IMG/VR virus record: IMGVR_UViG_3300021579_000010 | Coordinates: 1 to 51,412 of that record | Strand: one strand, 5' to 3' | Source: a virus | Lineage: Duplodnaviria; Caudoviricetes | DNA: 51,412 nt | Notes under the pieces: model-generated | What the model saw: the letters and a program-made list of their open reading frames with translations, nothing else | Told to the model about the DNA's origin: nothing | Databases searched by the model: none | Shown: positions 10,624 to 30,722 of the stretch, piece after piece | Position numbering within the stretch: the stretch's first letter is position 1 | How the letters are laid out: each line of letters starts with the position of its first letter | Translations under genes and position numbers: made by a program

Positions 10624-10625
10624 AA

Positions 10626-11207: not shown

Positions 11208-11861
11208 CAGCTTATGATTACACAGGTACAACCCAACAGGAAGTGTGCTGTAATCGTAAGTTAGGAACTGACCCATCAGGTTATAAACGGGAGAAGGTTC
11301 TAAGTTCTTTGATAAAGGGGAAACACCCAAGGCACCTGCGCCCAACACACGTACAGGGTAGTCCTGTGTCGTACCGTAGTTACCTGTGGTTTCACTACCG
11401 ACAGCACACAGCCTAGGTGATGCAGTTCCAGAGTACCGGACAATCCGCATACGGGTATCACAAGGTATCGCTGTAACAGGTACGTTAATGTGGAAGGACC
11501 TAACCTCGGTAGTACTTAGGGCAGCTAGTACAAAAGTGGTATCATAACCACCGAAAAAGGATATGTATCCACTTGCAGTATTGTAACACAAAGCAATTCT
11601 CACCCACGAAGTGCTAGGACAAGGTTCAAAAGCGATAGTTGTGTTGAAAGAGGAATCAGGGAACAGCAGTATTTCAGGTAGGTTATCAAACAGTGTGTAA
11701 TGACCAAGACCTGGCACAGAGTTGTCCAGATTGGATATTTCCACACGAGAGATACCACCTCCGCAAGTGTTGCAGTTGTTCAAGGCAGCGCAGTATGGTG
11801 CCGGATTAGTGTGCTGGCCATAAGATGCCACGCAAAGAAGTAATAAAATAAGTGTTCGCAT
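11190..11861 (-). CDS. Secreted GEVED-domain protein with a T9SS CTD-like tail (moron)
   Basis: Signal peptide MRTLILLLLCVASYG|Q; 'YC..ISRVEI..HYTLF..TRMRI..GTTQDY'; C-terminal 'VYNLMGQ..LPVGLY..KLLYK'. Confidence 0.75.
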   Translation of the reverse strand: MRTLILLLLCVASYGQHTNPAPYCAALNNCNTCGGGISRVEISNLDNSVPGLGHYTLFDNLPEILLFPDSSFNTTIAFEPCPSTSWVRIALCYNTASGYISFFGGYDTTFVLAALSTTEVRSFHINVPVTAIPCDTRMRIVRYSGTASPRLCAVGSETTGNYGTTQDYPVRVLGAGALGVSPLSKNLEPSPVYNLMGQFLTYDYSTLPVGLYLCNHKLLYKAE

Positions 11862-11864
11862 AGT

Positions 11865-11872: not shown

Positions 11873-11889
11873 AGTAATATATTTGAGGT

Positions 11890-17824: not shown

Positions 17825-17851
17825 AGAAAGCCCACCTAACGGTGGGTTTCT
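17825..17851. terminator. Bidirectional intrinsic terminator
   Basis: AGAAAGCCCACC-TAAC-GGTGGGTTTCT between convergent genes. Confidence 0.75.
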
Positions 17852-18472: not shown

Positions 18473-18645
18473 ATTTTAGCTTTTTTACTTTCAGGAAGTT
18501 TGTCGTGTTCCTTCATTATTAAATCCTTTACAGGCTGGATGAGCATAGTACACAGTGGCATCTCATAGTGTTGCTCTATGGCTTCCTTACGGGCTTTGTC
18601 CTCGTTACCCAAGGTTATCTGTATTCTGTTTTGCTGTTTTTTCAT
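18469..18645 (-). CDS. Putative ribbon-helix-helix DNA-binding protein
   Basis: 'NRIQITLGNEDKARKEAIEQHYEMPLCTML' strand-helix-helix pattern; own -7 element TATATTTG at 18652-18659. Confidence 0.5.
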   Translation of the reverse strand: MKKQQNRIQITLGNEDKARKEAIEQHYEMPLCTMLIQPVKDLIMKEHDKLPESKKAKI

Positions 18646-18653
18646 AAAACACA

Positions 18654-18686
18654 AATATAACTCTATTTAACTCTATTTAGCACTAT
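18654..18686 (+). promoter_or_regulatory. 33-bp element upstream of the head operon (copy 2)
   Basis: Identical to 3783-3815; followed by TATTTTTG at 18713-18720. Confidence 0.7.
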
Positions 18687-18739
18687 TCCTAGAAATATTT
18701 TTTAGTAGTACATATTTTTGGCTGTCTTAAAGTACTAAA

Positions 18740-19291
18740 ATGAAAAACTTACTTCTTATTTTACTGGTGTTCACTGGATTACTTGCCGAAGCGCAACCTA
18801 CACGTAAACACCCTAACTGGTCACCTGCACCATTTATCTACACAGGCCAGATGTACTACACAGCTAATGCCATCGCCTACACAGGTACTTATATACAGGA
18901 CACCATCGGTGCTTCTGCATCTATCAATCTTGCTGTAGCTGATTATAGGAAGGGTATTGTTGCGACTGATAGCTTTAGTTACCTGCCAATATTCGGTCAG
19001 GCTGCTCAGCAGTTTACTGTAAAATACACAAAAATATCCGGTAGTCCGGCTGTAACAGTTGTCCATGAATCATCTCCCGATGGTGTGTTGTGGGGTCCAC
19101 AGCTTACTACAAGCACGAACAGGTCACTGGATACACTAACTTTCACGGCATCAGGTACGGCTATTCTGTATGCACCTATCAGATATGGTAACTATGAGAG
19201 GTTAGCAATATACACTACATCAGCTACCCAATCAGGCTACATTAAGGCTTCTCACAACACTATTTTCCCGAACTACAACGCTACTAAGTAA
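18740..19291 (+). CDS. Signal-peptide-bearing beta-sandwich protein, first gene of the head operon
   Basis: MKNLLLILLVFTGLLAEA|Q; beta-rich 'VHESSPDGVLW'; TAATG overlap with the protease. Confidence 0.75.
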   Translation: MKNLLLILLVFTGLLAEAQPTRKHPNWSPAPFIYTGQMYYTANAIAYTGTYIQDTIGASASINLAVADYRKGIVATDSFSYLPIFGQAAQQFTVKYTKISGSPAVTVVHESSPDGVLWGPQLTTSTNRSLDTLTFTASGTAILYAPIRYGNYERLAIYTTSATQSGYIKASHNTIFPNYNATK

Positions 19292-20277
19292 TGGCTAAGG
19301 AAATCCTCATTTATAACGAACTTTATTCTTACACTGTGAGCAAATTCATTCAGGAGATGGAGGACGCACAGGGTCAGGATATTGTCGTTAGGGCTAACTG
19401 CCCTGGTGGGGATGTATTCTCTAGTTACGGTGTAGCTGCAAAGTGGAATGAACATACAGGTAACAAAACGCTGAAGATAGATGGCCGTGCTGATAGCATG
19501 ATGGCTTTCCTTCTTTGTAACGTAAACGATGCTGAGTGCTTAGATGTATCTCGTGTAATGTTCCACAGAGCAGCTTACCCATCTTACATAGAGGATAATA
19601 AAGAGCGTTTTACCGAGGCCATTAAAAAAGAACTTACAAGTGTCAATACAGACTTGCGTAAGATGATGGAACGCAAGGTGAATGCTAATATGTGGCAAGC
19701 CATTACAGGCGTGTCACTGGATGCAATGTTTAGTCTTGACACAAGAATTGACGTTGAACTTGATGCGCAGAAATGCTTAGCACTTGGTTTAGTAAAAAGG
19801 GTCAACAGCCTTACGGCAGAAAGGGCAAATGAGATTAATGCTATTGCCGCAAGATTTGGTATAGCAGCCATCCACAAGGTTGAAGCAAAAATTACAGAAA
19901 CAATTATTAAAACCCATAAGATTATGACAGTTGCGGAATTTCAAGCAGCAAACCCTACAGGGTACAAAGAAATCCTTAATGCAGGTGCAGCACAGGAGAA
20001 GGAGCGTATTGAAGCAATCATGACTTTCGCTGATGCGGATTTGAAAGCCTGTACGGACATGATTGCATCAGGTGCAACACCTGGCCCTAAATTCTTTGCA
20101 GAAATGTCAAAGAAGATGATGGCTAAGGGAACCCTGGGCGCATTGAAAGATGAGAACGTGGAGAACCTTGACCCTAACGCTAAGGCATCGGAGAAACCAG
20201 CAGAAGTTCTTACTGCTAAGCAGAAGGAAGCGGCTGAAATAGCTAAGGCATTAAAGGATGCCCGGAACATCAAATAA
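19291..20277 (+). CDS. ClpP-like (S14) prohead protease with C-terminal scaffold
   Basis: 'NCPGGDV', 'ADSM', 'MFH'; possible internal scaffold start ATG 19924 (MTVAEFQAANP). Confidence 0.9.
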   Translation: MAKEILIYNELYSYTVSKFIQEMEDAQGQDIVVRANCPGGDVFSSYGVAAKWNEHTGNKTLKIDGRADSMMAFLLCNVNDAECLDVSRVMFHRAAYPSYIEDNKERFTEAIKKELTSVNTDLRKMMERKVNANMWQAITGVSLDAMFSLDTRIDVELDAQKCLALGLVKRVNSLTAERANEINAIAARFGIAAIHKVEAKITETIIKTHKIMTVAEFQAANPTGYKEILNAGAAQEKERIEAIMTFADADLKACTDMIASGATPGPKFFAEMSKKMMAKGTLGALKDENVENLDPNAKASEKPAEVLTAKQKEAAEIAKALKDARNIK

Positions 20278-20305
20278 TTATAAACCCTTTTAAAGCATAA
20301 ATAAA

Positions 20306-20749
20306 ATGGCCGGATTCGGAGTTTTACAAAACAACTGGACAACCCAACAGTTGTTCATCGGTGGTAACCTGCTGTACAAGACAGGCACTTACACCAATTC
20401 AGGTGGCTCACCTGTGACCCTCGCGATGGGTACACTTGTTGGACAGGTGCTTGCTACAGGTAAGATTTTACCTTTAGTAGCTGCTGCGACAGATGGTAGT
20501 CAATACCCTCGTGGTGTGCTACAGCAGTCTTACACGGTTGCTGCTGGTGCGAGCGTAACAGTGTCATACTGTTTTTCTGGAATGGTGAACCAGAACATGC
20601 TTATCCTGAACGGTTCAGAAACACTTGACACCACGGTAGCGAGTGCAACCACAGGTGGTGGCAGCATAGGCGCACTTATCACCTCACTGACTACAATCAC
20701 ATTGTGGGCTTCAAACGAACTGTCTAAGTACGACAACGCAGTATCCTAA
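20306..20749 (+). CDS. Head decoration protein (lambda gpD/HDPD-like)
   Basis: 'GTLVGQV..TGK...ATDGSQYPRGVL'; between protease and MCP. Confidence 0.85.
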   Translation: MAGFGVLQNNWTTQQLFIGGNLLYKTGTYTNSGGSPVTLAMGTLVGQVLATGKILPLVAAATDGSQYPRGVLQQSYTVAAGASVTVSYCFSGMVNQNMLILNGSETLDTTVASATTGGGSIGALITSLTTITLWASNELSKYDNAVS

Positions 20750-20776
20750 TCTATAACCTTATAAAATAATAATACT

Positions 20777-21889
20777 ATGGCCAGTTCATTCGGCAATATC
20801 AGTAGCTCCGAAATTAAACCATTATTTACCACCGAGATTGTGGACAGGTTTGATGAACTCATGGAAATCCGCACAACTGGGTTCTTGAGGTCATTCTTTG
20901 CGCCCGTAATAGCTAAGGTACTTTACCCTGCTATCGAGGTAAGGCGTGGTACTGAGAAGGTGGGAGTTGACATAACCTTGGGTTCTCAGGGCTTGCGTAC
21001 GCAAATCACAAAAGCCACGCAAAAAATCTATGACCCTTACTACTTCTTCTATTTTTCCGATGTGTCTAAATTGGAGTGTTACTACAACACGTTTGGCAGT
21101 GGTACATTCAACTTAAACTCAATGGTTGAACTGGCAGATAAGGTGTCCGTAAGCAACAAGTCCAACATGGATTTGATTGACAGGGCAATTGAACTGTGGT
21201 GCGCTGAGGTTATGGAGTTTGGTACAACGACCAGCTTACGTGACGGTACTGTGATTGACTTTGGCCGTAAAGCTGAATCTATTGTTGACCTAGGGGCAGG
21301 CCATTACTGGAACGTATCAGGGGTTGACCCTTCTGTATCTTTCCAGGCAGCAGGTGAGTTTATGCGTAAGGAAGGTAAGTATGCAAGCACTGTGTTCCAT
21401 GCCATCCTTGGCAGCGAAGCAAACCTCGCATTACAGGCTAACGATGTTATCCTGAGCCGTGCTAAGAGCATTGAAACACTGAAGCTGGAAACCATCATTG
21501 CACCTACACAGTTGAAAGCTGACGGTCAGGCATACCGTGGCACGTACACGGCTGGTAGCTATACTTTCCATTTATGGGAATACCCACAGTTCTACGAATT
21601 GGCTGACGCTTACCCTGAAACACCAAACAGCACCTACACACTGACACCATACATCAACCCAATAAAGGTATTCGTTTTACCAGCAGAAGATATTTTGCCA
21701 GGTAACATCCTTTACGGTGCCTGTCCTCAAATCGGAATGAACACAGCATCTCTGGAAGCTGGACCGTTCCACATGAAGGAAAGAATTGACACATGGAATG
21801 TATTCCACGAATTTGGTGTAGAAAGCCGCCCTATGGTAGTTCCTAAGTTGATTGACAGATTTTACACCATGCAGGTTCTACCTGCTTAA
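20777..21889 (+). CDS. Major capsid protein (lambda gpE family)
   Basis: 'FLRSFF', 'IDRAIELWCAEVM', 'IDFGR', 'VESRPM'. Confidence 0.92.
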   Translation: MASSFGNISSSEIKPLFTTEIVDRFDELMEIRTTGFLRSFFAPVIAKVLYPAIEVRRGTEKVGVDITLGSQGLRTQITKATQKIYDPYYFFYFSDVSKLECYYNTFGSGTFNLNSMVELADKVSVSNKSNMDLIDRAIELWCAEVMEFGTTTSLRDGTVIDFGRKAESIVDLGAGHYWNVSGVDPSVSFQAAGEFMRKEGKYASTVFHAILGSEANLALQANDVILSRAKSIETLKLETIIAPTQLKADGQAYRGTYTAGSYTFHLWEYPQFYELADAYPETPNSTYTLTPYINPIKVFVLPAEDILPGNILYGACPQIGMNTASLEAGPFHMKERIDTWNVFHEFGVESRPMVVPKLIDRFYTMQVLPA

Positions 21890-21900
21890 AACCAACATAA

Positions 21901-22269
21901 ATGGCAGACAAGTATTACGTTACAGCAGGTGCCATCCCTGCGTTCAAACACGTCAAGAGGCATGTCAAAGGGAAAGACGGTAAAATGCGTATGGTCATGA
22001 TGGGTGACCTACTTGAAGAAAGTTTTTTTGAGGATGGCGAAATTGCCGACCTGATGAGGAAAAACTTCATAGTCCTATATGAACCACACACGGTTACCAA
22101 AGCGGATTTGGAACACACATCTACCGTACGTAACCCTACAACAGGTGTAGGTGAGCAGGTGAAAACCAACAGGCACGTAATTGAGGCGCATGACCTTAAA
22201 CCAGGTATGGTCATTCATAAGGGTACAAAAGGGTTCAAGCCTGCGGCAGTGACCGAGGCTAAGAAATAA
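21901..22269 (+). CDS. Small head-associated protein (packaging chaperone-like)
   Basis: Directly after MCP; 'GD....F....IADL....IV' similar to the next ORF. Confidence 0.55.
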   Translation: MADKYYVTAGAIPAFKHVKRHVKGKDGKMRMVMMGDLLEESFFEDGEIADLMRKNFIVLYEPHTVTKADLEHTSTVRNPTTGVGEQVKTNRHVIEAHDLKPGMVIHKGTKGFKPAAVTEAKK

Positions 22270-22293
22270 TAAAGATAATTTTTAGTATAGCAG

Positions 22294-22321
22294 AAAAGCC
22301 GTCAGCAATGGCGGCTTTTTT
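22294..22321 (+). terminator. Intrinsic terminator after the capsid genes
   Basis: AAAAGCCGTCA-GCAA-TGGCGGCTTTTTT. Confidence 0.8.
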
Positions 22322-22334
22322 AAAATCAGGGAAT

Positions 22335-22496
22335 ATGTATAAGATATTAGCAGCATCGGTTACAGGGCATGGAGCCAACAGGTTTAAGGAAGGTGATGAA
22401 GTGCCTAAGTACAGGCTTATTGAAGCCAACATACCTGCGCTTATAGAGGCTGGTGCAATTGTGGAAATTAAACCTGAAGAACTAGACGGGGAATAG
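22335..22496 (+). CDS. Small head-associated protein, probable paralog of 21901..22269
   Basis: MYKILAASV...GDEV.....NIPALIEAGAIVEI; start moved downstream of the terminator. Confidence 0.6.
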   Translation: MYKILAASVTGHGANRFKEGDEVPKYRLIEANIPALIEAGAIVEIKPEELDGE

Positions 22497-23239
22497 TGGG
22501 GTTCACTGCCGACATAGCGCAAGATATAGCAGATATTCTGTCCGACACGGACGAGTTCGCCATACCTGTAATCTGGACGGTTACCGGTGGCAGCACTGTT
22601 GTGTCTAAGACATGCAACGCACAGGTAGTTCTCCACAACTTTTACATCAACGACACAGGTAATGCTGTGATAGGCACTACTTCACGCATTATGGTGAGTG
22701 AGGTATCTTTGAAAGCAGCAGGGTTCCCTACACGGGATAGCAACGGCAAATTCAGCTTAAAAGGAGATATTGTAACTTTTACTGAGGAAGTGAACCAAAC
22801 GCAGATAACCTTTGGTATCCGTGAAGTTTTCGGAAATTACCAGACAGGAATGATTACCTGCACACTCGGCACATATGGCACTGTTACACCTCCTGGTAGA
22901 ACGATTATAGGCTGGATTGCAGCACCTATCCTGATTAAAGTAATGACCACTCCTGGCACTCAAAAGCAGACATTGGCTAATGGTGACCAGATTAATATTG
23001 AGTATGCAGTAGATGGCCAAGGTAAGCTACCAATTCCTTACCTGGTAAGCTACACGGCACTTACTCCGTTCTTAATGGACAATGTGAATTACAGCTTAGT
23101 AGTAACACCTGCTTTTGACGCAAACGCTGTGCTGTACACAGTGGCTACAGGCACATTCAACAATGCTAATAACGGGGGCTTTGCTCCTGATATAAATGTA
23201 ATAACTGTTAACGCATCAATCCCAATTTGGAAAACATGA
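22496..23239 (+). CDS. Head closure / head-tail joining protein (lambda FII-like) with C-terminal extension
   Basis: 'DIADILSDTDEFA', 'LKGDIVTF', 'GMITCTL', then ~120 extra aa. Confidence 0.65.
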   Translation: MGFTADIAQDIADILSDTDEFAIPVIWTVTGGSTVVSKTCNAQVVLHNFYINDTGNAVIGTTSRIMVSEVSLKAAGFPTRDSNGKFSLKGDIVTFTEEVNQTQITFGIREVFGNYQTGMITCTLGTYGTVTPPGRTIIGWIAAPILIKVMTTPGTQKQTLANGDQINIEYAVDGQGKLPIPYLVSYTALTPFLMDNVNYSLVVTPAFDANAVLYTVATGTFNNANNGGFAPDINVITVNASIPIWKT

Positions 23240-23556
23240 GAAAACTAATGACACTGATTGCCTTACTTGTGGCATCAGTAGCTTTCGGGCAGGCCAACAC
23301 AAAACAAGTGCAGATTAAAAACATATCCAGCACATGTATTCAGATTAACGGTCAGGATTACCCTAAAAACGGGTTTCTGCTCACGCAGTACAAGTATGGC
23401 ACGACCGACAGCACACTAGGGCTGCTATACGCCAATACAAGGACTTACATGCTTGCACCCACTATTGATTCGCTGTTCTACTATGTGGACAGCAGCAAGA
23501 AAGCGTACAACATGACAGTACTCCGGACGTGGTTCAGAACTAATCTAGGCAACTAA
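23236..23556 (+). CDS. Signal-peptide-bearing hypothetical protein
   Basis: MRKLMTLIALLVASVAFG|Q; ATGA and TAATG overlaps with neighbours. Confidence 0.75.
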   Translation: MRKLMTLIALLVASVAFGQANTKQVQIKNISSTCIQINGQDYPKNGFLLTQYKYGTTDSTLGLLYANTRTYMLAPTIDSLFYYVDSSKKAYNMTVLRTWFRTNLGN

Positions 23557-24164
23557 TGGGCTTAATACCAGGACTTATACCGAAGCAGAATTTCGAGGTC
23601 ATACGTGATGCATTAGGTGCTTTGCTTATGCTAGAGATGTCTGCGCAGTATGCACTGGATAACAGCTACCCAAACATACAAGCTGTTGATGTAGAGAGGT
23701 TCATCCCATACAGTGGTGATACCGAGCTACCCCGTATCAACGTGAACGTGGATAAAATAGAATGGAACCAACAGAGTAGCAGGATTGCTTATGGCGATGT
23801 CACATACAACATAGATATATACGCAACAGGTAACAGCAGTGAGGTAGCTGAAGGTGATAAAGAGGCTATGTACCTGACCAGTAAGATAGCAGGTCTGGTG
23901 AGGGCTATCATCACTAATCCTGTATATGCTAATCTTGGTGTTACCCCAGGTGCCATCAGCAGCAGGTGTATTGATAAGCTGATGATACTCAGTAAAGCCC
24001 AAGTAGCTGATGCTCTGAGTAATGTACTAGGTAGGGTACAGCTAATGGTACGCTGTGCAGAGGGTGTTGAACTGTCGCTGGCAACTAACCTTGTCACTGA
24101 AATGACTACAAAAGTAAAACTTAACAACAGTACCTATGGGTACTACTATGACATCATATTATGA
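23556..24164 (+). CDS. Tail terminator / neck protein
   Basis: 'NFEVIRD', 'ELPRINV', 'YNIDIY'; position in the neck region. Confidence 0.7.
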   Translation: MGLIPGLIPKQNFEVIRDALGALLMLEMSAQYALDNSYPNIQAVDVERFIPYSGDTELPRINVNVDKIEWNQQSSRIAYGDVTYNIDIYATGNSSEVAEGDKEAMYLTSKIAGLVRAIITNPVYANLGVTPGAISSRCIDKLMILSKAQVADALSNVLGRVQLMVRCAEGVELSLATNLVTEMTTKVKLNNSTYGYYYDIIL

Positions 24165-24619
24165 AACTAGGAGCGTTACCAACAGATACACTTGACCCAG
24201 CCACCGATACAGTGCTAGTGGTTCGTGATGTGGCTGGTGTCAAGTCTGACATCAGAGTACCAGCTACTGATTTTTCAGTGCCGGTTACGCCAGGTACACC
24301 AATACCTGCACTACACCCCGGAGCTGGAACAGGAGCCACGGTAACACTAATTAACTGCACTGATAAGTCAGGCACAATACAGGTTACAACAGGCACTTCA
24401 CCATCTACAAGTCAAAGAATAGTAGAAATGGCGTTTAGTACAGCTTACACAACACCTGTAAGCGTGGTATTTAGCCCATTTGACGAAAACGCTAACACCG
24501 CATCAGGGTTTGTGTACTGTAACTCAAATCACACAGCAGGTTTTTCCATTGTTGCTAATTCGCTAGGAAGTTTAAACGGACCAGGGGTTGTTTACGAATG
24601 GTCATACATTGTTTTATGA
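24161..24619 (+). CDS. Short fibre/adaptor protein with beta-rich tip domain
   Basis: N-terminal 'KLGALP..D.VLVV' anchor-type motif; 'FSTAYTTPVSVVFSP..WSYIV'. Confidence 0.55.
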   Translation: MKLGALPTDTLDPATDTVLVVRDVAGVKSDIRVPATDFSVPVTPGTPIPALHPGAGTGATVTLINCTDKSGTIQVTTGTSPSTSQRIVEMAFSTAYTTPVSVVFSPFDENANTASGFVYCNSNHTAGFSIVANSLGSLNGPGVVYEWSYIVL

Positions 24620-26943
24620 GGTATTTAATATTCACACTACTTTTCCTCTCTGCAACCAGCTATGGGCAGGCACCTGTAAGGCAGGTTAACAGATATGGGC
24701 AGCTAGGCTACATAGATTCCAACAAGGGAACTTCTATGCAGAACCAACTCATAATACCTGACACAGGTACTTTGTTCAACCCCTTCCTTGATAGCATACG
24801 CTCCATTAGGTTCAATCCTGTTGACACTACTTTAGAGGTATACCTACCATCATTAGGTGGCTGGTTTGCTATTAAAGGAGGTACTGGTGGTGGCGGTAGT
24901 TACTCTGCCGGATACGGTCTATTACTGGCGCGACACACATTCAGGGTTGATTCAGGAGTTGTAGCATCCCTGAACTGGATTGATAGTGTCCTAGCAGCCA
25001 ACCCCTACGGGTGGATAAGTGAGGAAACAGACCCTTATAGTTTTCATTTTGACGATAGCAACACACATAACAATGCAATTACATTAGACTACTTCAATGA
25101 CAGCACTTACTATTTAAGGCAATTGCGAGATGCTAAAATTACCAGCCCTGTAGATAAGCAAGTGTTAGAATACAATTCCTCGTATTGGGTTAACCGTACG
25201 CCATATTGGGTAAAATCAGGTGATAGCAATGTAAATGGCGGTTATGCAAGTTATTACTCAATCAATCCTATACCTCACGCAGGCATGATACTAGGAAGTA
25301 ATGGCACAGGCTTTGTATGGACTTCCTTACCTACATCAGTAGGCAGGCTTGCTTGTACCGATAACAGTATCAACATACAGCCTATTAGTGGCTCGGACAG
25401 CGTTGTGTATGTATCAGTGAATGTAGCGAACGGCTATAAATTTTCAGGTGTAGATACTTTCACCCAAAACCTTTATCTACAAAACAAATTAGGTATCGGA
25501 ACAGGCGCACCAGGCGCACCGCTTGACATTCATAGTTCAGGTAGTGTACTTGCCCAAATGGAGAATACTAGCACAGGCAATAGCTTAATAACATTCAGAA
25601 ATCAGGGGTCGGCATATTGGGGAATAGGTAATAATTACAATGGAGGTTTGAATGATTTTATAATCTACAATGCCCAAACCTTTACAAACCCGATAAGTAT
25701 TGCTGAAGATAACACTATTACGGTATCAGGTAACATAATTGCCACAGGTCATAACGCAACAGCCGATACGTTTAAAGGCATACCATACAGCGCAGCAGGG
25801 GGAGCGCTAACAGGCAACTTTCCCAATCCTACAATTGCGGCAAGCGGAGTTGGCGCAGGAACATGCAACTATTGCAATCTTACCATTGGCTCGGATGGGC
25901 GAGTTTCATCTAAGAGCAATGGTACAGCCCCAATTAGCTATTCGTTTAAGCTACCACTATCAATCAACAGTACTACGGTTTCTATACCTGCCGTTTCAGC
26001 AACAGATAGTGGTTATGTTACTCCAACACAATATAACACGTGGAACGCTAAGGGGGCAGGTACGGTAACAAGCCTATCAGTCGCCACTTCAAACGGTTTT
26101 GCAGGTTCAGTCGCAACAGCCACTACAACACCTGTTATTACTATGTCATTAACCCCAACAGTAGGTAGTATTGTTAAGGTCGGTTCAGGTGGTTCAGCTA
26201 CAGCAGCAGTGGCAGGAACGGACTATTTGACAACAGCCGTTACAAGTGTTGGGCTATCAGTACCGTCTATATTTTCAGTTACACCTACACCAATCACCAC
26301 AACAGGTACATTCAGCGTTACGGCAGTTCCTGAAACAGCCAACTATGTCTGGGCAGGACCTACTACAGGCGCAGCAGCACAACCCTCGTTCAGGGCTTTA
26401 GTTGGGTCGGATATACCCACAACCACTGTTACAGCAGGCATTTATGGCAGTGGGTCGCTTATACCATCATTCACAGTAGACGCAACAGGTAGGCTCACAG
26501 GGGTTACCACATATACCTTCAGTGCCGGGGGCAGCTCTACCACCCTGACAGCAGGTCCAGGAATCGCACTTACGGCAGGTACTAACACGTATACGGTATC
26601 TGTAGCAGCCAACACCATGTATGACAATGGGAACAGCAGCACAGCGAAGACATGGGATGGGGTAAACGGTACGCTCCAAAAAATGGCAATGACAGGTAAT
26701 TGTGTAATCACGCTACAGAACTTATTAGTAGGAGTGCCTTACTATTTCTATGTCACACAGTCAGCAGGTACGCTATACGCTCTGAGCAGCACAGGCACCA
26801 GTGCGATTAAAGCACCCTTCAACGGGGTGGGCGTATGGCCGCTAACGCAGGTAGCATCAGCACTTGATGTGTACACCATAATCAATTATGGTACGGTAGC
26901 AAGCCCTTTATATAAAATGTCCTACAGCCCATACAACAACTAA
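24616..26943 (+). CDS. Long fibre-like protein with N-terminal Sec signal peptide
   Basis: MRYLIFTLLFLSATSYG|Q; fibre motifs 'ETDP', 'LGIGTGAP', 'LTIGSDGRV', 'IPSFTVDATGRLT'; Thr/Gly/Ser-rich. Confidence 0.8.
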   Translation: MRYLIFTLLFLSATSYGQAPVRQVNRYGQLGYIDSNKGTSMQNQLIIPDTGTLFNPFLDSIRSIRFNPVDTTLEVYLPSLGGWFAIKGGTGGGGSYSAGYGLLLARHTFRVDSGVVASLNWIDSVLAANPYGWISEETDPYSFHFDDSNTHNNAITLDYFNDSTYYLRQLRDAKITSPVDKQVLEYNSSYWVNRTPYWVKSGDSNVNGGYASYYSINPIPHAGMILGSNGTGFVWTSLPTSVGRLACTDNSINIQPISGSDSVVYVSVNVANGYKFSGVDTFTQNLYLQNKLGIGTGAPGAPLDIHSSGSVLAQMENTSTGNSLITFRNQGSAYWGIGNNYNGGLNDFIIYNAQTFTNPISIAEDNTITVSGNIIATGHNATADTFKGIPYSAAGGALTGNFPNPTIAASGVGAGTCNYCNLTIGSDGRVSSKSNGTAPISYSFKLPLSINSTTVSIPAVSATDSGYVTPTQYNTWNAKGAGTVTSLSVATSNGFAGSVATATTTPVITMSLTPTVGSIVKVGSGGSATAAVAGTDYLTTAVTSVGLSVPSIFSVTPTPITTTGTFSVTAVPETANYVWAGPTTGAAAQPSFRALVGSDIPTTTVTAGIYGSGSLIPSFTVDATGRLTGVTTYTFSAGGSSTTLTAGPGIALTAGTNTYTVSVAANTMYDNGNSSTAKTWDGVNGTLQKMAMTGNCVITLQNLLVGVPYYFYVTQSAGTLYALSSTGTSAIKAPFNGVGVWPLTQVASALDVYTIINYGTVASPLYKMSYSPYNN

Positions 26944-27803
26944 TGAGAACACTGGTATTTATATTATTAAGCACGATAGCCATGGCTCAGGACTACCCTC
27001 CGCAAGCCAGAGCAGTCCTTATCACTACCAATGCATCATCAAGCCTGACTGACGGTAGGGCTTATGCTGTGGCGTACCAAGCAGGGCTACTCAACTACTA
27101 CGCGACCTCAGCATTCGGGTTAACCACCACTGGCGTGATAGCTTCTTATTATGCGGCTAAGTACTACTTGCTCGGTAGTACCCTGGCGCAGATGAAATAT
27201 AACTTCATCAATACCAGTAGCTACACCTTAACAGACGTAAACACATGCACCTACTCAGCAGCAGGCATAGGAACAAGTGCATCTGGTAATAAATACGTAA
27301 ACACCAATTTCAACGATAGCACTAATGGCAGTGATACCATGGGTATCCAAATATACAGCAGTGCAATATCTACTACAGGTGATAATAATATGATGGGTGT
27401 AGATGGTACGATTCTTGCTACTTCCAGTTTTACATACCTGCAAATGAATGGCAGCACTATATACACAGGTATGCATGACAATGGTAACTTTAGTTTTGCG
27501 AATGGTTCAACCACGTACAACGGGATAAGCCATTTCATACAAAGGCAGGGCGCACCGAACTACACGAAAACAGTCTATTTCCAATCAGGAGCGCTAAAGA
27601 AAACCAACACTGCCACAGCCCTGTTCAGGCCAAATTATAGTATCTTTGTTGGTGGGGTGAGCGACAGGGGTACGATTAATAAGCCTATGACAGCCACAAT
27701 CGGGTGTTTTGGTATTACGTCAGGCAGGGAACTAACAACAGCACAGGTGTTGGAAAGTTGGAATATTGATAGCAAGATATTAACTACAGGAGGGAAAAAC
27801 TAA
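26943..27803 (+). CDS. Signal-peptide-bearing LamG/concanavalin-like lectin protein
   Basis: MRTLVFILLSTIAMA|Q; 'YVNTNF', 'IFVGG', 'GRELTTAQV'. Confidence 0.65.
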   Translation: MRTLVFILLSTIAMAQDYPPQARAVLITTNASSSLTDGRAYAVAYQAGLLNYYATSAFGLTTTGVIASYYAAKYYLLGSTLAQMKYNFINTSSYTLTDVNTCTYSAAGIGTSASGNKYVNTNFNDSTNGSDTMGIQIYSSAISTTGDNNMMGVDGTILATSSFTYLQMNGSTIYTGMHDNGNFSFANGSTTYNGISHFIQRQGAPNYTKTVYFQSGALKKTNTATALFRPNYSIFVGGVSDRGTINKPMTATIGCFGITSGRELTTAQVLESWNIDSKILTTGGKN

Positions 27804-28009
27804 TGAAATTCATAATCCTACCCTTATGGTTCGTACACTGGATTGTCACTGTAGAAGTGAACAACCACAAGATAGCACCGTGGAAGTACCCTATTAATGG
27901 AGACAGCCAATGGATTTGCAATTATGATTCTTACCCAATATTTTACAAACAATTCGACAGTTTGTTGTATATTGAGGGCAAATTAGATACTGTAACAATA
28001 AAAGAATGA
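27803..28009 (+). CDS. Hypothetical protein
   Basis: 68 aa, TAATG-coupled. Confidence 0.6.
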   Translation: MKFIILPLWFVHWIVTVEVNNHKIAPWKYPINGDSQWICNYDSYPIFYKQFDSLLYIEGKLDTVTIKE

Positions 28010-28013
28010 TATT

Positions 28014-28322
28014 ATGCCACAACAAGATTTAATGGTGGAAGTTAGCTTTGCAGTTGAACCAACCACTTTAGTACACAGGATAGGTGGTAGCACCTATAAC
28101 CCTGCGGTAGAAGCACAAAATGTACCTGCCGTGGATTTAATATCTTGGATTGATACCAACACTGATGGCGAGTTTCGCTTATGTACTCGTAAATTTTTTG
28201 GTGAAGTGTTGGATGGTGACTTTGAGAACTCGGTACACACGTACTCCACTAAAGCTGCTGACCACGTACTCGTATGTGGCTTAGTTGGTGGGCACCCTAC
28301 AACCGTACTGCGCCCAAGGTAA
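28014..28322 (+). CDS. Hypothetical protein
   Basis: 102 aa in operon. Confidence 0.65.
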   Translation: MPQQDLMVEVSFAVEPTTLVHRIGGSTYNPAVEAQNVPAVDLISWIDTNTDGEFRLCTRKFFGEVLDGDFENSVHTYSTKAADHVLVCGLVGGHPTTVLRPR

Positions 28323-28657
28323 TGAAAAGGGTAATTGCCATACTTGCTATAGCCTGGTTACGGGTTATCCACTTACCGGTAGTGCCGTTTGGTGCGTATC
28401 CTGATGTCAATAACTTCGTGTGGTTCTTTGCTGAATCGGTAATGTGGGTTCTGGCATCGCTGGAAATACACGACAGGTACAAAGGCAAATGGTGGAGCCG
28501 GTATCTTGTAACGCTTGCCATACTCGGTGTAGCTGACGAGATAGCAAAACCTTTCAGGACTGGTGGGTATTGGAATTATTGGATTTATGCTGTATCACTT
28601 ATTATAATTATCTATGACGTTAAGAATAGGAGAAATCCCACACGAGCAATTAGCTAA
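28322..28657 (+). CDS. Multi-pass membrane protein (holin/antiholin candidate)
   Basis: MKRVIAIL..., 3-4 hydrophobic helices; TAATG-coupled start. Confidence 0.6.
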   Translation: MKRVIAILAIAWLRVIHLPVVPFGAYPDVNNFVWFFAESVMWVLASLEIHDRYKGKWWSRYLVTLAILGVADEIAKPFRTGGYWNYWIYAVSLIIIIYDVKNRRNPTRAIS

Positions 28658-28892
28658 CATAGGTAATCACTTACTCACTGTTTTAGTGCTGTTCGGTGTT
28701 TCCCAAGTGTGGGTACATGACGCACACATTGCTTACAAAGTGATTGTCAGTTTGGTAGCTGGAGTTGGCTCATTTTTCTACACTTTAAACCAAGTATCAA
28801 TATACAAAAAAAATAATAAGACGAAAAACAAGCATACTACCAAAGCAGTAACTAACTTTAGGGGCAAAGACCCTAAAATTGATAACAGATAA
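28614..28892 (+). CDS. Two-TM membrane protein with basic tail (holin candidate)
   Basis: Two hydrophobic helices, Lys-rich C-terminus. Confidence 0.6.
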   Translation: MTLRIGEIPHEQLANIGNHLLTVLVLFGVSQVWVHDAHIAYKVIVSLVAGVGSFFYTLNQVSIYKKNNKTKNKHTTKAVTNFRGKDPKIDNR

Positions 28893-28971
28893 TACAGCTT
28901 TAGCAATATTGTTTTATGCCATAGCTGTAATTATAATCCTTAAAATATTCAAACGAGATGATGTACCATAA
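28879..28971 (+). CDS. 30-aa single-TM microprotein (not in ORF track)
   Basis: TTG start: MITDNTALAILFYAIAVIIILKIFKRDDVP; fills the intergenic gap. Confidence 0.35.
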   Translation: MITDNTALAILFYAIAVIIILKIFKRDDVP

Positions 28972-29284
28972 TGCCCTTTTATTCGTGTTCGGTGTAGCAG
29001 GTGTAGCCCTGCATAACCTGATTAAGATAAGCCAGCAAAAGAAAGCCACTGGCAAGTTCAATGTGGCAGATTACTATATCACCGAGTGGCCATCTATAGC
29101 CATATCATTTATTATCGTGAGCTTGGCTGTTGCCCTGAAGGGGGAGATAAAGCAGCTTGAAGCGGCGGGTGACTACCTAGGATTTGGCTTTGTGGCTATA
29201 GGCTATATGGGTCAAAGCCTATTCATCACAATACTTAATAAGGCAGCTAGCGCTGCCGGAGTTGACACTAAAACAGACCAATAA
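28958..29284 (+). CDS. Holin (three TM helices)
   Basis: Three hydrophobic helices, 'AIGYMGQS', lysis context. Confidence 0.7.
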   Translation: MMYHNALLFVFGVAGVALHNLIKISQQKKATGKFNVADYYITEWPSIAISFIIVSLAVALKGEIKQLEAAGDYLGFGFVAIGYMGQSLFITILNKAASAAGVDTKTDQ

Positions 29285-29561
29285 TGGATGTTCAAGAAAC
29301 ACGAGATGGGATACATGAGTATTTCAATTTGACCTATGCGAGTTACCTAGTTCTGCCTAGAACTGTACTGCAATCTATGCCTGATACGTGGCAAGCTGAT
29401 TTTGTGGAAATGCTTGAAAAAATACCACGCACGCTAGATTACACGGAGGTTGATAATTACAGGGTTATGGCAACAGATGCAAAAGGCAAATTTGTAAAAG
29501 ACGATTTAGCAAATTATCAAAGAGGTAGGAGAAAATTACCCACTAAAACTGACCAATAATG
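29266..29561 (+). repeat. 21-bp direct repeats CACTAAAAC(A/T)GACCAATAATG flanking ORF 29284..29559
   Basis: Copies at 29266-29286 and 29541-29561, one mismatch. Confidence 0.85.
29284..29559 (+). CDS. Conserved phage hypothetical protein
   Basis: 'IHEYFNLTYASYLVLPRTVLQSMP..WQ' motif familiar from other phages. Confidence 0.7.
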   Translation: MDVQETRDGIHEYFNLTYASYLVLPRTVLQSMPDTWQADFVEMLEKIPRTLDYTEVDNYRVMATDAKGKFVKDDLANYQRGRRKLPTKTDQ

Positions 29562-30143
29562 AGAATCTATCTTATAGCCATCCTGCTGGCACTTGCCTCG
29601 TGTAATGGATTACGGAGGCAGACACACAGGTTTGAGGTATTTCATGACCAGCACGACAGCTTGGCAGCTATGTACTGCGCCAAGTGGTATCCCACTACCA
29701 GTGACAGCTCACGCAAGGTGAAAGTTCTACCCGGTAAGATACTCCGCATACCTGGTAAGACTGTGTACGCTAACTGTGATTCAGCATACAGGGCTGCTCT
29801 TGCCAAGGCTAAACATGATGGTTCAGATGTAGTGGTGGTACCATCTGTAAAGGTGAAATCCCAAGACAGCTACAGGCAGAGGGATACCGTGCAGATACAT
29901 GATGAAGTAGTGACGGTGGATAATAAGCAACTAATAGCTTTGGCGTACCAGAAGAACCAGGAGATTGCGGCCAAGAACGCAGAAATAGAGAGATTAAATA
30001 TTCAGGCTGTCACATTTAAGACTAAGATGATGACTTACAGGAAAACGACATTTACGCTACTAGGGTTGCTGGTGCTTGCTATTGCAGGTACAATATTAGA
30101 ATTGAAGTATAAGCTGTCAACAAAAGTAAAAAGGCTGGTGTAG
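29559..30143 (+). CDS. Unimolecular spanin (u-spanin) candidate
   Basis: Lipobox LAS|C at the N-terminus plus C-terminal TM 'FTLLGLLVLAIAGTIL'; upstream of the endolysin. Confidence 0.75.
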   Translation: MRIYLIAILLALASCNGLRRQTHRFEVFHDQHDSLAAMYCAKWYPTTSDSSRKVKVLPGKILRIPGKTVYANCDSAYRAALAKAKHDGSDVVVVPSVKVKSQDSYRQRDTVQIHDEVVTVDNKQLIALAYQKNQEIAAKNAEIERLNIQAVTFKTKMMTYRKTTFTLLGLLVLAIAGTILELKYKLSTKVKRLV

Positions 30144-30194
30144 ACGCACCAACCCTCAAATCCTATTCGGCTCAAAAAAAATACAATTTTTTTT

Positions 30195-30659
30195 ATGAAA
30201 CCAAAAATTATTTCTGTAGCGGAAACACAAATAGGCATCCAAGAGGATGAAGCACACACTAACCGTGGTGAAGCTATTAAATACCAAAGAGCAGCAGGTC
30301 TAGGTGATGCTGGCGGTTACCCCTGGTGCCAATCCTTCATGGTATGGTGTGGACGTGAGGCATATGGTAAGGACAGTCCTATACCTAGAGTGGGTGGCGT
30401 ACTAGAGTGCCTCAGGCTCGCAAAAGATAAGGGTATCCCTATATCTAATATCCCCGTGATAGGCTCACAATTTATCATAGATGAAGGAGGCAGTAGGGGT
30501 CACACCGGATTAGTGGTTGCTATTGACGGTGATAGGCTGACCACTATTGAGGGCAATAGTAACCCACAAGGAGGCCGTGATGGCTACGCTGTGGTCCTGC
30601 AAACGAAAAGAAGGATAAAAGATATGAAGTGCTTTATAAACTATAATTATGTAGGTTAG
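30195..30659 (+). CDS. Endolysin, CHAP domain
   Basis: 'PWCQSF', 'GHTGLV', 'TIEGN'. Confidence 0.92.
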   Translation: MKPKIISVAETQIGIQEDEAHTNRGEAIKYQRAAGLGDAGGYPWCQSFMVWCGREAYGKDSPIPRVGGVLECLRLAKDKGIPISNIPVIGSQFIIDEGGSRGHTGLVVAIDGDRLTTIEGNSNPQGGRDGYAVVLQTKRRIKDMKCFINYNYVG

Positions 30660-30694
30660 TAGAACCTGTTCCCAGGCTCTTTGGTGTGAACGAG

Positions 30695-30722
30695 AACCCT
30701 GTCCTAGTGGCAGGGTTTTTTC
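30695..30722 (+). terminator. Intrinsic terminator ending the late operon
   Basis: AACCCTGTC-CTAGT-GGCAGGGTT plus T-tract. Confidence 0.85.

What the first reader, a model, noticed from the sequence alone, without database searches (positions are those of the whole stretch)
18740..27803. Virion-type genes with Sec signal peptides: possible periplasmic route for phage fibre/decoration proteins
Seen in sequence: four genes in the head/neck/fibre operon begin with classical SPI signal peptides followed by Gln. They are 18740 (MKNLLLILLVFTGLLAEA|Q), 23236 (MRKLMTLIALLVASVAFG|Q), 24616 (MRYLIFTLLFLSATSYG|Q) and 26943 (MRTLVFILLSTIAMA|Q). Each is coupled to neighbours by TAATG/ATGA overlaps, so they are integral to the late operon rather than independent morons. 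The 24616 product is a 775-aa fibre-like protein, 26943 looks lectin-like, and 18740 precedes the prohead protease. Established: Bacteroidota SPI substrates typically expose an N-terminal Gln that is cyclised to pyroglutamate (Q-rule), whereas tailed-phage virions assemble in the cytoplasm. Inference: the phage exports a set of accessory virion proteins that fold in the periplasm and join particles at lysis, or that act at the infected-cell envelope (receptor masking, adhesion).
Basis: partly seen in the sequence, partly recalled or inferred. Interest (0 to 1): 0.88.

Follow-up and report, generated by a model that had tools for sequence, protein, structure and literature searches.

The report
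Phage fibre and lectin genes with export signals
A 51-kb phage of Bacteroidota puts its host's secretion signal on four fibre- and lectin-type proteins encoded inside its particle-building operon, so these parts probably mature outside the cytoplasm, which is not how tailed-phage parts are known to be made.

Summary
The window is a complete 51.4-kb myovirus genome of the flavobacterial "Winoviridae"-type lineage. Genes 18740, 23236, 24616 and 26943 start with 15-18-residue Sec/signal-peptidase-I leaders followed by Gln (the Bacteroidota Q-rule). A fifth such gene lies on the minus strand (11190-11861, GEVED domain). My scanner found 5 hits here, 0 in 548 kb of reversed control sequence, and 3 (all in one locus) in 242 kb of 24 related loci. 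All five homologous protein clusters found (49-95% identity) keep leader plus Gln. The four genes lie in one late unit (18.7-30.7 kb) bounded by strong terminators and headed by a 33-nt element that also precedes the sheath gene. SP3 is a mosaic fibre-like protein, SP4 probably a ConA/LamG-like lectin, SP1 a small beta-sandwich. They are lineage-specific add-ons, not core virion genes. In cultured Cellulophaga phages, four large leader-plus-Gln proteins are annotated as virion proteins from MS/MS. Export is well supported (~0.85). Whether the products join particles at lysis (my best guess, 0.45) or act on the envelope (0.35) is open. I found no paper describing exported tailed-phage fibres.

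The parts
18654..18686 (+). 33-nt element containing the tandem TAACTCTATT repeat. It is identical to 3783-3815 upstream of the sheath gene and is a candidate late-operon control site ahead of SP1.
   Evidence: all 4 exact copies of the 10-mer lie in these two places.
18740..19291 (+). SP1: 183 aa, leader residues 1-18 (nt 18740-18793), mature protein starts at Gln19. Small beta-sandwich, CBM/DUF6385-like (weak). First gene of the late head-to-lysis unit, directly upstream of the prohead protease.
   Evidence: DUF6385 16.8 bits, below the 26.8 cut-off; Atlas, pTM 0.52; 95% homolog keeps ...LLASA|Q.
23236..23556 (+). SP2: 106 aa, leader 1-18 (nt 23236-23289), mature 88 aa, basic, no family. Inserted between Hc1 and the phrog_4671 neck protein.
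   Evidence: Hc1 and neck hits 23-26 nt apart in 6 of 6 related loci where both are seen; 93% homolog keeps ...TTTFG|Q; 5 of 7 substitutions lie in the first 20 residues.
24161..24619 (+). 152-aa protein with what I recognise by eye (recalled, untested) as a fibre-type N-terminus. It has no leader and is translationally coupled to SP3. Possible cytoplasmic partner or adaptor (untested).
   Evidence: no family and no solved relative.
24616..26943 (+). SP3: 775 aa, leader 1-17 (nt 24616-24666). Mosaic fibre-like protein with about 65-aa repeats (residues ~470-680) shared with phage tail-fibre proteins.
   Evidence: P0010 shares residues 1-120 including the leader and then diverges. P0005 shares the middle behind a different leader-bearing N-terminus.
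26943..27803 (+). SP4: 286 aa, leader 1-15 (nt 26943-26987). Probable ConA/LamG-type jelly-roll lectin.
   Evidence: 49% homolog P0155 keeps ...LNSRA|Q; Atlas model pTM 0.74; TM 0.67-0.80 to viral and LamG clusters. No Pfam hit.
11190..11861 (-). SP5: 223 aa, leader 1-15 (nt 11861-11817), 9 Cys, GEVED domain. Opposite-strand gene inside the baseplate module, where relatives have a second fibre gene.
   Evidence: (PF20009 25.2 bits against cut-off 24.4), 17/18/40.
10626..11207 (+). Short (193 aa) baseplate fibre without a leader. Its N-terminus is homologous to the 343-392-aa fibres of phiSM and FCV-1.
27803..30659 (+). Lysis region directly downstream of SP4: small membrane proteins, a 194-aa lipobox protein with a C-terminal membrane helix (29559-30143), and the endolysin (30195-30659).
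17828..17849 (+). Strong intrinsic terminator after the portal gene. Upstream boundary of the late unit.
30692..30720 (+). Strong intrinsic terminator after the endolysin. Downstream boundary of the late unit.

Best explanation
Four accessory proteins encoded in the late head-to-lysis operon are made with genuine Bacteroidota Sec/signal-peptidase-I leaders. They are SP1 (small beta-sandwich), SP2 (88-aa basic protein), SP3 (mosaic 775-aa fibre) and SP4 (ConA/LamG-like lectin).

Late in infection they are threaded through SecYEG and cut before Gln. The host's periplasmic glutaminyl cyclase then converts that Gln to pyroglutamate (established for the phylum, PMC5837995 abstract). They fold in the periplasm, where disulfides and the phylum's O-glycosylation at D-(S/T)-(A/I/L/V/M/T) are available.

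Inferred step: when the holins and endolysin encoded just downstream breach the envelope, compartments mix. The fibre/lectin set (SP3 with SP4, perhaps docking on a cytoplasmic adaptor such as 24161 or the short baseplate fibre 10626) then attaches to finished particles as host-recognition or adhesion gear.

Shown: the leaders, their conservation, the operon structure and the fibre/lectin character. Inferred: export itself (about 0.85), and attachment to virions (about 0.45, the figure given as confidence).
For: Leaders and controls:
- 5 of 5 leader-bearing ORFs have Gln at +1; the reversed-sequence control gave 0 hits in 548 kb.
- All five homologous clusters found keep leader+Gln: P0001, P0157, P0010, P0005, P0155.
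- In SP2's sibling, 5 of 7 substitutions fall in the first 20 residues while hydrophobicity and FG|Q are kept.

Operon structure:
- One late unit bounded by strong terminators at 17828 and 30692, with no comparable plus-strand hairpin beside the SP genes.
- 1-4-nt overlaps with neighbours.
- The same 33-nt element precedes SP1 and the sheath gene.
- GC and GC3 are within the range of the structural genes.

SP3 behaves like a receptor-binding protein:
- Its repeats are shared with annotated tail-fibre proteins and with 5151 proteins at E<=0.001.
- It shows modular exchange, with the N-terminal 120 residues kept in a sibling and the rest swapped.
- No close SP4 homolog turned up for the sibling, although SP1 and SP2 are 93-95% identical there. 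This suggests SP3's tip and SP4 swap together (inference).

The ordinary baseplate fibre is shortened to 193 aa, against 343-392 aa in relatives.

Virion association elsewhere: of 8 leader+Gln ORFs of at least 100 aa in the examined parts of two MS/MS-analysed Cellulophaga phages, 4 are annotated 'structural, MS/MS'. These are 4 of the 5 longer than 200 aa.

Leader-bearing fibre/lectin genes sit next to the lysis cassette in four lineages: this window, L006, phiSM, and phi18:3/phi46:3.

O-glycosylation sequons: 12 observed against 5.2 expected in the five mature proteins (p=0.006), against 23 and 22.1 in 23 cytoplasmic structural proteins.
Against: - No mechanism for post-export attachment of tailed-phage parts is known, and the convention is that phage virion proteins lack leaders (PMC6199706, passage read).
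- The genes are accessory: 23 of 24 related loci (242 kb) have none, and SP2 is an insertion between normally adjacent genes.
- The window still has leaderless fibre candidates (10626, 24161), so a virion role for SP3/SP4 is not forced.
- The MS/MS evidence is second-hand, from GenBank notes. The paper (Holmfeldt 2013) and its supplements could not be read, and sticky lectins could co-purify with particles.
- phiSM gp09, an exported esterase/lyase-type protein, is not MS-flagged.
- phi40:1 fibres have no leader.
- Sequon enrichment is modest here and absent in the MS-detected Cellulophaga proteins: gp085-087 have 3 against about 9.5 expected.
- In crAss001 the anchoring fibre gp22 keeps residues 1-26 in the virion (PMC10172136, passage read).
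- Fold assignments rest on Atlas models only. My AlphaFold runs failed.
Confidence: 0.45

Rival explanations
1. The proteins are exported but never become virion parts. They act on the infected cell's envelope or in the lysate. Possible roles: binding or modifying surface-glycan receptors or their periplasmic precursors so that progeny are not trapped on debris, blocking superinfection, or helping release. This would be the logic of T5 Llp or of exported depolymerases. Their linkage to the lysis cassette reflects this envelope role.
For: - Leader-bearing genes abut the lysis cassette in four lineages.
- phiSM gp09 is an exported SGNH-esterase (PF13472 above cut-off) with sub-threshold CBM and pectate-lyase-like matches, and it is not MS-flagged.
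- The genes are patchy, lineage-specific and near-orphan, as accessory genes are.
- SP5 is an opposite-strand GEVED gene of moron type.
- Q-rule genes of P. gingivalis phages were read as outer-membrane modifiers (PMC10367356, passages read).
Against: - No T9SS sorting domain, lipobox or barrel signature was found, so the products should stay periplasmic, where they cannot mask surface receptors.
- A 775-aa mosaic fibre with RBP-like module exchange has no obvious periplasmic target.
- Four large relatives-in-kind are MS/MS-annotated as structural.
- There are no own promoters or terminators, and the genes are tightly coupled to structural genes.
Confidence: 0.35
2. The hydrophobic N-termini are not used for Sec export during infection. 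They could be transient membrane tethers or assembly or propeptide segments removed by the prohead protease, and the proteins would assemble in the cytoplasm like ordinary virion parts.
For: - Tailed-phage assembly is cytoplasmic (established).
- The P. gingivalis phage paper suggests that predicted leaders on capsid proteins are removed by the prohead protease (PMC10367356, passage read).
- SP1 lies next to the protease gene.
Against: - Gln at +1 after a small -1 residue in 5 of 5 proteins and in all homologs is the specific mark of signal peptidase I plus periplasmic glutaminyl cyclase in this phylum (PMC5837995 abstract).
- The cores are 9-13 residues, typical of cleaved leaders.
- The leader sequence drifts while its properties are kept.
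Confidence: 0.1
3. Annotation artefact: the true starts lie downstream of the hydrophobic segments, and the leaders are untranslated or chance features.
For: In-frame downstream starts exist: SP1 codon 38, SP3 codon 41, SP4 codon 14.
Against: - The upstream starts overlap the preceding stops, and downstream starts would leave 40-120-nt gaps in a genome packed by overlaps.
- The leader region stays open, hydrophobic and Gln-terminated in homologs down to 49% identity.
- SP4's Met14 is not conserved in P0155.
- The reversed-sequence control gave 0 hits.
Confidence: 0.03

Closest known systems
Leader-bearing 'structural proteins' of cultured Cellulophaga baltica phages: phiSM gp08 (KC821616) and phi18:3 gp085-087 (KC821620, Pachyviridae); phi46:3 gp079-083 by similarity
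   Same: - Large late proteins with K-rich n-region, short hydrophobic core and Gln at +1.
- Arranged in runs directly upstream of the lysis cassette.
- N-terminal module shared between different C-terminal domains.

   Different: - No sequence similarity to SP1-SP5.
- These are cultured phages whose records carry MS/MS 'structural' notes, whereas this window has no proteomics.
- They are not sequon-enriched.
- I found no discussion of their leaders in the papers I could read. PMC8776804 has 0 occurrences of 'signal peptide', and Holmfeldt 2013 is not held.
Q-rule signal-peptide genes of Porphyromonas gingivalis prophages (Matrishin et al. 2023, PMC10367356; passages read)
   Same: Phage genes of unknown function with SPI leaders exposing Gln. 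The authors read this as adaptation to the host's general secretion system.
   Different: There they are treated as host-modifying genes of temperate phages. Here they are fibre/lectin-type, overlap structural genes and sit in the late operon of a virulent-looking myovirus. Their Supplementary Data 4, which lists the genes, could not be seen.
Exported accessory genes inside late operons of tailed phages: lambda Lom and Bor, T5 Llp, phi80/N15 Cor (recalled, not searched here)
   Same: Sec-dependent leaders on phage proteins encoded among tail or late genes, acting at the envelope (exclusion, protecting progeny from debris).
   Different: Those are small outer-membrane proteins or lipoproteins, usually with their own promoter. 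They are not fibre-like, not mosaic and not reported in virions. SP1-4 have no lipobox, no own terminator and are translationally coupled.
Phage tail fibres / receptor-binding proteins with adaptor-mediated docking, for example crAss001 gp22 and its partner fibres (PMC10172136; passages read)
   Same: SP3 shares fibre repeats and modular exchange. In crAss001 an anchoring fibre carries further fibre proteins, and the tail is stabilised by disulfides.
   Different: crAss001 gp22 keeps residues 1-26 in the virion, so it is not leader-processed. No leader is mentioned in that paper: 0 occurrences of 'signal peptide' or 'signal sequence'.
Sec-exported or SAR endolysins, and coat proteins of filamentous phages (recalled)
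   Same: They show that phages use the host Sec system for late proteins, and in Ff phages for virion proteins.
   Different: Endolysins are lysis enzymes. Ff virions assemble at the membrane by extrusion. Neither involves adding parts to a cytoplasm-built tailed particle.

Membership tests
Sec/SPI signal peptide obeying the Bacteroidota Q-rule | Positively charged n-region and an uncharged hydrophobic core of about 7-15 residues | tested here: met
   SP1-SP5: n-regions MKN, MRK, MR, MR, MR; cores of 9-13 residues; total leader length 15-18 aa.
Sec/SPI signal peptide obeying the Bacteroidota Q-rule | Small residues at -3/-1 and Gln at +1 | tested here: met
   AEA|Q, AFG|Q, SYG|Q, AMA|Q, SYG|Q: 5 of 5. 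Control: 0 hits in 547,779 nt of reversed sequence. Rule taken from the PMC5837995 abstract.
Sec/SPI signal peptide obeying the Bacteroidota Q-rule | Leader conserved in homologs | tested here: met
   P0001 (95%), P0157 (93%), P0010 (54%), P0005 (63% over the middle), P0155 (49%): 5 of 5 clusters keep leader+Gln. P0003 is a start-truncated member of P0155's cluster.
Sec/SPI signal peptide obeying the Bacteroidota Q-rule | Call by a trained predictor (SignalP); cleavage and pyroglutamate shown experimentally | not testable with these tools
Lipoprotein (SPII) signal | Lipobox with Cys at +1 | tested here: not met
   There is no Cys in the leaders of SP1-4. SP5 has Cys10 preceded by LLL, which is not a canonical lipobox. 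By contrast 29559 has ...LALAS|C.
T9SS cargo | C-terminal sorting domain (Por_Secre_tail / type B CTD HMMs) | tested here: not met
   No Pfam or NCBIfam hit at E<=5 for SP1-SP5. My visual impression of a CTD-like end in SP5 was not confirmed.
Classical moron (lambda lom/bor type) | Own promoter and terminator, independent of neighbours; atypical composition | tested here: not met
   SP1-4 overlap their neighbours by 1-4 nt, have no strong flanking plus-strand terminator, and have GC 0.435-0.452 against 0.385-0.489 for structural genes. SP5, on the opposite strand, fits better.
Phage tail fibre / receptor-binding protein (SP3) | Sequence relationship to annotated fibre proteins | tested here: met
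   tblastn to phiRSL1 'tail fiber protein' and Motura 'minor tail protein' (E 2e-4 to 4e-4, but only 6-7% of the query). The repeat is shared with 5151 proteins at E<=0.001. There is no PHROG or Pfam family.
Phage tail fibre / receptor-binding protein (SP3) | Modular mosaicism: conserved N-terminal part, exchanged distal parts | tested here: met
   Alignment A1 with P0005 and P0010.
Phage tail fibre / receptor-binding protein (SP3) | Physical presence on the virion | not testable with these tools
   Needs virion proteomics or imaging.
ConA-like / LamG lectin fold (SP4) | Match to the family model or fold | tested here: inconclusive
   No Pfam hit. The Atlas's own model (pTM 0.74) aligns at TM 0.67-0.80 with viral clusters and LamG clusters. 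This is a lead only.
GEVED domain (SP5) | Pfam PF20009 above the gathering score | tested here: met
   25.2 bits against cut-off 24.4, residues 113-170.
Lambda-type head module (context) | ClpP-type protease, gpD decoration protein and gpE-type capsid protein above Pfam cut-offs | tested here: met
   PF00574 34.8/20.2; PF02924 45.6/29.1; PF03864 36.4/22.9. PHROG head closure Hc1 E 3.7e-10.

The most novel reading that the evidence does not exclude
Some tailed phages of Bacteroidota build part of their host-recognition gear outside the cytoplasm. Fibre and lectin proteins are Sec-exported, capped with pyroglutamate and possibly O-glycosylated and disulfide-bonded in the periplasm. They dock onto finished particles only when holin and endolysin action mixes the compartments. 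That would be a two-compartment assembly route for a tailed virion, here in a sheath-tailed phage with the exported genes embedded in the head operon.
Probability: 0.4. Interest if true: 0.9.

Novelty: new variant of a known kind. Interest (0 to 1): 0.72.

Why it matters
Tailed-phage particles are taken to be built wholly in the cytoplasm, and the absence of leaders is even used as an argument that a protein is of phage origin (PMC6199706).

If fibre/lectin proteins with Q-rule leaders really reach virions, several things follow:
- Host-range determinants of many Bacteroidota phages (marine, freshwater, gut) would be periplasm-matured and possibly host-glycosylated.
- This changes how receptor-binding proteins should be predicted, expressed and engineered, and how virion proteomes are read.
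- It would link fibre attachment to the lysis step.

If instead the proteins act on the envelope, they are a new class of late, fibre-like exit or exclusion factors.

Either way the question is directly testable in the cultured Cellulophaga systems, where the same kind of protein is already MS/MS-annotated.

Tried and rejected
Searches for relatives that found nothing:
- megablast of 18700-27900 against phages.
- tblastn of SP1 and SP4 against phages.
- Single-protein locus scans in viral contigs for SP3, SP1 and the capsid protein.
- SP3 alignment in metagenome contigs.
- Capsid alignment in bacterial genomes.
- SP4 alignment in viral contigs.

Host search with SP5: only a 36% match over 80 residues in an Ignavibacteriales MAG, not informative.

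Structure:
- AlphaFold2 of SP3 (3-row alignment) and SP1 (2 rows) gave mean pLDDT 29.1 and 31.0, so no fold search was run.
- Sequence searches of SP3, SP4 and 24161 against PDB chains gave nothing meaningful.

Complex prediction of 24161 (3 copies) with SP3 residues 18-135 (3 copies): no verdict, score 0.00, controls not folded. It counts neither for nor against.

T9SS sorting domains: suspected by eye in SP5, not found by Pfam or NCBIfam. Also none in phiSM gp08/gp09 or phi18:3 gp085-087.

Promoters:
- The Bacteroidota two-box motif (recalled consensus) is not enriched: 5 against 2.1 expected, with 7 of 100 shuffles reaching 5, and none lies upstream of SP1.
- The sigma-70 scan is uninformative: 27 against 29.6.

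No similarity between SP1 and the L006 protein at the same position, nor between any SP protein and phiSM or FCV-1.

Literature searches for exported phage fibres or virion proteins found no such report. Holmfeldt et al. 2013 is not held. Supplements were not opened.
Full report
WHAT THE WINDOW IS

The window is the entire assembly: 51,412 bp in one contig, with no tRNA genes. It encodes a complete sheath-tailed phage:
- Large terminase (1747).
- Sheath (3866), tube, tape measure (6407), baseplate and hub (8287-15731).
- Portal (16035).
- ClpP-type prohead protease (19291), lambda gpD-type decoration protein (20306), gpE-type capsid protein (20777), head-closure Hc1 (22496), and a phrog_4671 neck protein (23556).
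- Endolysin (30195).

The nearest cultured relatives, at about 29% capsid identity, are the Cellulophaga phiSM group and the Flavobacterium columnare FCV-1 group. These correspond to the 'Winoviridae' described in PMC8776804 (passages read). The host is therefore almost certainly a member of Bacteroidota. I could not name it.

THE OBSERVATION

Each leader has:
- a basic n-region;
- a 9-13-residue uncharged core;
- small residues at -3/-1;
- Gln at +1.
The stop/start overlaps with neighbours are real. The exception is 18740, which is the first gene after an 85-nt spacer.

A fifth gene of the same kind lies on the minus strand at 11190-11861. In a rough call of 80 ORFs, these five plus one lipobox protein (29559) are the clear leader-bearing products.

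A purpose-written scanner for 'leader + Gln' gave these counts (the first version is):
- 5 hits in the window, all at real gene starts.
- 0 hits in 547,779 nt of reversed sequence.
- 3 hits, all in one locus, in 242,178 nt of 24 related viral loci.
The scanner is a heuristic. No trained predictor was available.

ARE THE LEADERS FUNCTIONAL?

[quoted passage not shown] I took this from the abstract of PMC5837995. The proteins are near-orphans, but every homologous cluster found keeps the leader and the Gln:
- SP1: 1 hit among 124 candidates, 95% identical...LLASA|Q.
- SP2: 1 hit, 93% identical...TTTFG|Q. Five of its 7 substitutions fall in the first 20 residues.
- SP4: one foreign cluster, 49% identical...LNSRA|Q.
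- SP3: P0010 (...QVCSG|Q) and P0005 (...LFANG|Q).
Downstream alternative starts exist but are not conserved, and using them would open gaps in a genome packed by overlaps. I put export at about 0.85.

WHAT THE PROTEINS ARE

SP3:
- It shares a repeat of about 65 aa (residues ~470-680) with 5151 proteins at E<=0.001.
- Of the 150 best hits, 25 look leader-bearing by my heuristic and the rest do not.
- In deposited phages the same stretch hits a 'tail fiber protein' (phiRSL1) and a 'minor tail protein' (Motura), at only 6-7% query coverage.
- The alignment with its two closest relatives shows module exchange. P0010 keeps residues 1-120 and then diverges. P0005 has another leader-bearing N-terminus, a partly identical middle, and P0010's C-terminus.

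SP4: no Pfam family, but the Atlas's own model (pTM 0.74) matches viral and LamG/ConA-like clusters at TM 0.67-0.80.

SP1: a weakly modelled small beta-sandwith-type protein near viral DUF6385/CBM-like clusters.

SP2: no relatives beyond the sibling.

SP5: carries a GEVED domain, just above the Pfam cut-off.

No T9SS sorting domain or lipobox was found on SP1-5. The default destination is therefore the periplasm.

OPERON CONTEXT

Strong plus-strand terminators lie after the portal gene (17828-17849) and after the endolysin (30692-30720). None of similar strength flanks an SP gene.

A 33-nt block containing the tandem TAACTCTATT repeat is identical at 3783-3815 (before the sheath gene) and at 18654-18686 (before SP1). 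All four exact copies of the 10-mer lie in these two places.

The base composition of the SP genes is within the range of the structural genes.

So SP1-SP4 are late genes co-expressed with head and lysis genes. They are not autonomous morons.

COMPARATIVE CONTEXT

In 24 related viral loci the gene order is portal, variable gap, protease, gpD, capsid, Hc1, neck, sheath, tube.
- Hc1 and neck hits are 23-26 nt apart in 6 of 6 loci where both were detected.
- The neck hit is followed by the sheath hit in all 17 loci where both were detected.
- The same adjacency is annotated in phiSM and FCV-1.

It follows that SP2 is an insertion. In this phage the tail module has moved to between the terminase and portal genes, leaving 24161-SP3-SP4 and the lysis genes after the neck gene.

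Only the closest locus, L006, has similar genes. Its portal-protease gap holds:
- a 544-aa fibre-like protein with ...MVMA|Q;
- a 231-aa protein with a leader-like N-terminus;
- a 255-aa leader+Gln protein;
- holins and an endolysin;
- a 231-aa leader+Gln protein directly before the protease, the position of SP1.
The L006 protein at the SP1 position shows no sequence similarity to SP1.

DO EXPORTED PROTEINS REACH VIRIONS?

GenBank records of Cellulophaga phages carry notes of the form 'structural protein, experimental MS/MS'.
- phiSM (positions 589-29,644 examined): gp08 (407 aa...FLVLS|Q) is so labelled. The adjacent gp09 (1094 aa...FFAVA|Q) is not. gp09 has an SGNH esterase domain above cut-off, plus a sub-threshold CBM_4_9 match and a far sub-threshold partial pectate-lyase match.
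- phi18:3, of another family (positions 13,590-54,522 examined): three consecutive genes, gp085, gp086 and gp087 (547, 785 and 559 aa), all have leader+Gln and all are MS/MS-labelled.
- phi46:3: five consecutive such genes, labelled by similarity only.

By the second scanner, 8 ORFs of at least 100 aa score in the two directly analysed phages. Four of the 8 are MS-labelled, and these are 4 of the 5 longer than 200 aa. The other three are lysis-cassette membrane or lipoprotein-like products. The first, looser scanner (at least 60 aa) also flagged two short unlabelled ORFs.

Counter-examples:
- phiST (first 50 kb) has none.
- phi40:1 (first 50 kb) has MS-labelled fibres with ordinary N-termini, and only a 97-aa unlabelled leader+Gln ORF.

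Caveats:
- I could not read the proteomics paper or its supplements, so purity and peptide coverage are unknown to me.
- PHROG labels for these proteins derive from the same records.
- That search did show that the first ~60 residues of gp087, leader included, recur in front of different families.

GLYCOSYLATION SEQUONS

The motif (D)(S/T)(A/I/L/V/M/T) is taken from the abstract of PMC8550257 (search listing). Shuffle tests gave these results:
- Five mature exported proteins of the window: 12 sequons against 5.2 expected (p=0.006).
- 23 cytoplasmic structural proteins: 23 against 22.1.
- L006's three exported proteins: 6, 4 and 5 against 2.3, 1.3 and 1.7.
- phiSM gp08/gp09: 7 against about 7.1.
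- phi18:3 gp085-087: 3 against about 9.5.
The enrichment is real but modest here, and it is not general.

LITERATURE

- Q-rule leaders on phage genes of unknown function are in print for P. gingivalis phages, read as envelope modifiers (PMC10367356, passages).
- The conventional view that phage target proteins lack leaders is stated in PMC6199706 (passage).
- The crAss001 structure paper does not mention leaders. It shows the anchoring fibre gp22 bound through residues 1-26 and carrying further fibres (PMC10172136, passages).
- Seven searches for exported fibres or virion proteins of tailed phages found nothing relevant.

EARLIER NOTES OF THIS SCAN

A word search returned 39 notes in at least 35 other genomes that describe the same pattern and cite the same phi18:3 proteins. 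They are unchecked AI notes and do not count as independent evidence. I reached the phi18:3 result and the sequon test before reading them, and I re-tested both claims here.

VERDICT

Firm conclusions:
- These are real, conserved, Bacteroidota-type export leaders on four late, fibre/lectin-type accessory genes inside the structural operon, plus one opposite-strand GEVED gene.
- Export to the periplasm is likely.

Open question: the destination of the products.
- Joining particles when lysis mixes the compartments: 0.45, my preferred reading.
- A purely envelope- or lysate-acting role: 0.35.
- Non-export explanations: about 0.13 together.

The failed or no-verdict computations do not bear on this.

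Noticed in passing
window 11190-11861 (-): A GEVED-domain, Cys-rich (9 Cys), leader+Gln gene on the opposite strand inside the baseplate module. It sits where phiSM and FCV-1 carry a second fibre gene. Its C-terminus looked T9SS-CTD-like by eye, but no HMM confirms that.
   Followed up: partly
window 3783-3815 and 18654-18686 (+): An identical 33-nt block with the tandem TAACTCTATT repeat, upstream of the sheath gene and of SP1. Candidate late-gene control element. Only these two copies occur in the genome.
   Followed up: partly
window 29559-30143 (+): A 194-aa protein with a lipobox (...LALAS|C) and a C-terminal membrane helix, between the holin-like genes and the endolysin. It looks like a one-piece spanin. 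No PHROG hit.
   Followed up: no
window 1747-24164 against L006-L029, L001, L002: The gene order is rearranged relative to all relatives. The whole tail/baseplate module lies between the terminase and portal genes, and the otherwise invariant neck-sheath junction is broken.
   Followed up: partly
window 22496-23239 (+): Hc1 head-closure protein of 247 aa. Only residues 18-128 match the 127-aa family profile, so it carries an extra C-terminal domain of about 120 aa directly before the inserted SP2.
   Followed up: no
window 10626-11207 (+): The baseplate fibre is only 193 aa. Its first ~76 residues match the 343-392-aa fibres of phiSM and FCV-1, and its end matches the C-terminus of a 'minor tail protein' family.
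   Followed up: partly
window 51059-51276 and 93-118: Dense tandem repeats near the contig ends (21-nt x2.7, 31-nt x5.1, 10-nt x2.6). Possibly an origin or terminal region.
   Followed up: no
window 17855-18654 (-): Three small minus-strand genes between the portal gene and SP1, one of them (18185-18472) with an N-terminal membrane or leader-like segment without Gln.
   Followed up: no
L005 30343-38945 (phi46:3 gp079-083): Five consecutive leader+Gln genes. gp081 and gp082 share an identical leader and first residues but differ downstream.
   Followed up: partly
L006 2829-8552: The portal-protease gap of the closest relative holds three leader+Gln proteins, one further protein with a leader-like N-terminus, and a complete lysis cassette. 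Its three leader+Gln proteins are each sequon-enriched (p 0.02-0.04).
   Followed up: partly
L003 19302-24994 (phi18:3 gp085-087): The MS/MS-labelled exported proteins are depleted of the O-glycosylation sequon (3 against about 9.5 expected), the opposite of the window and L006.
   Followed up: partly
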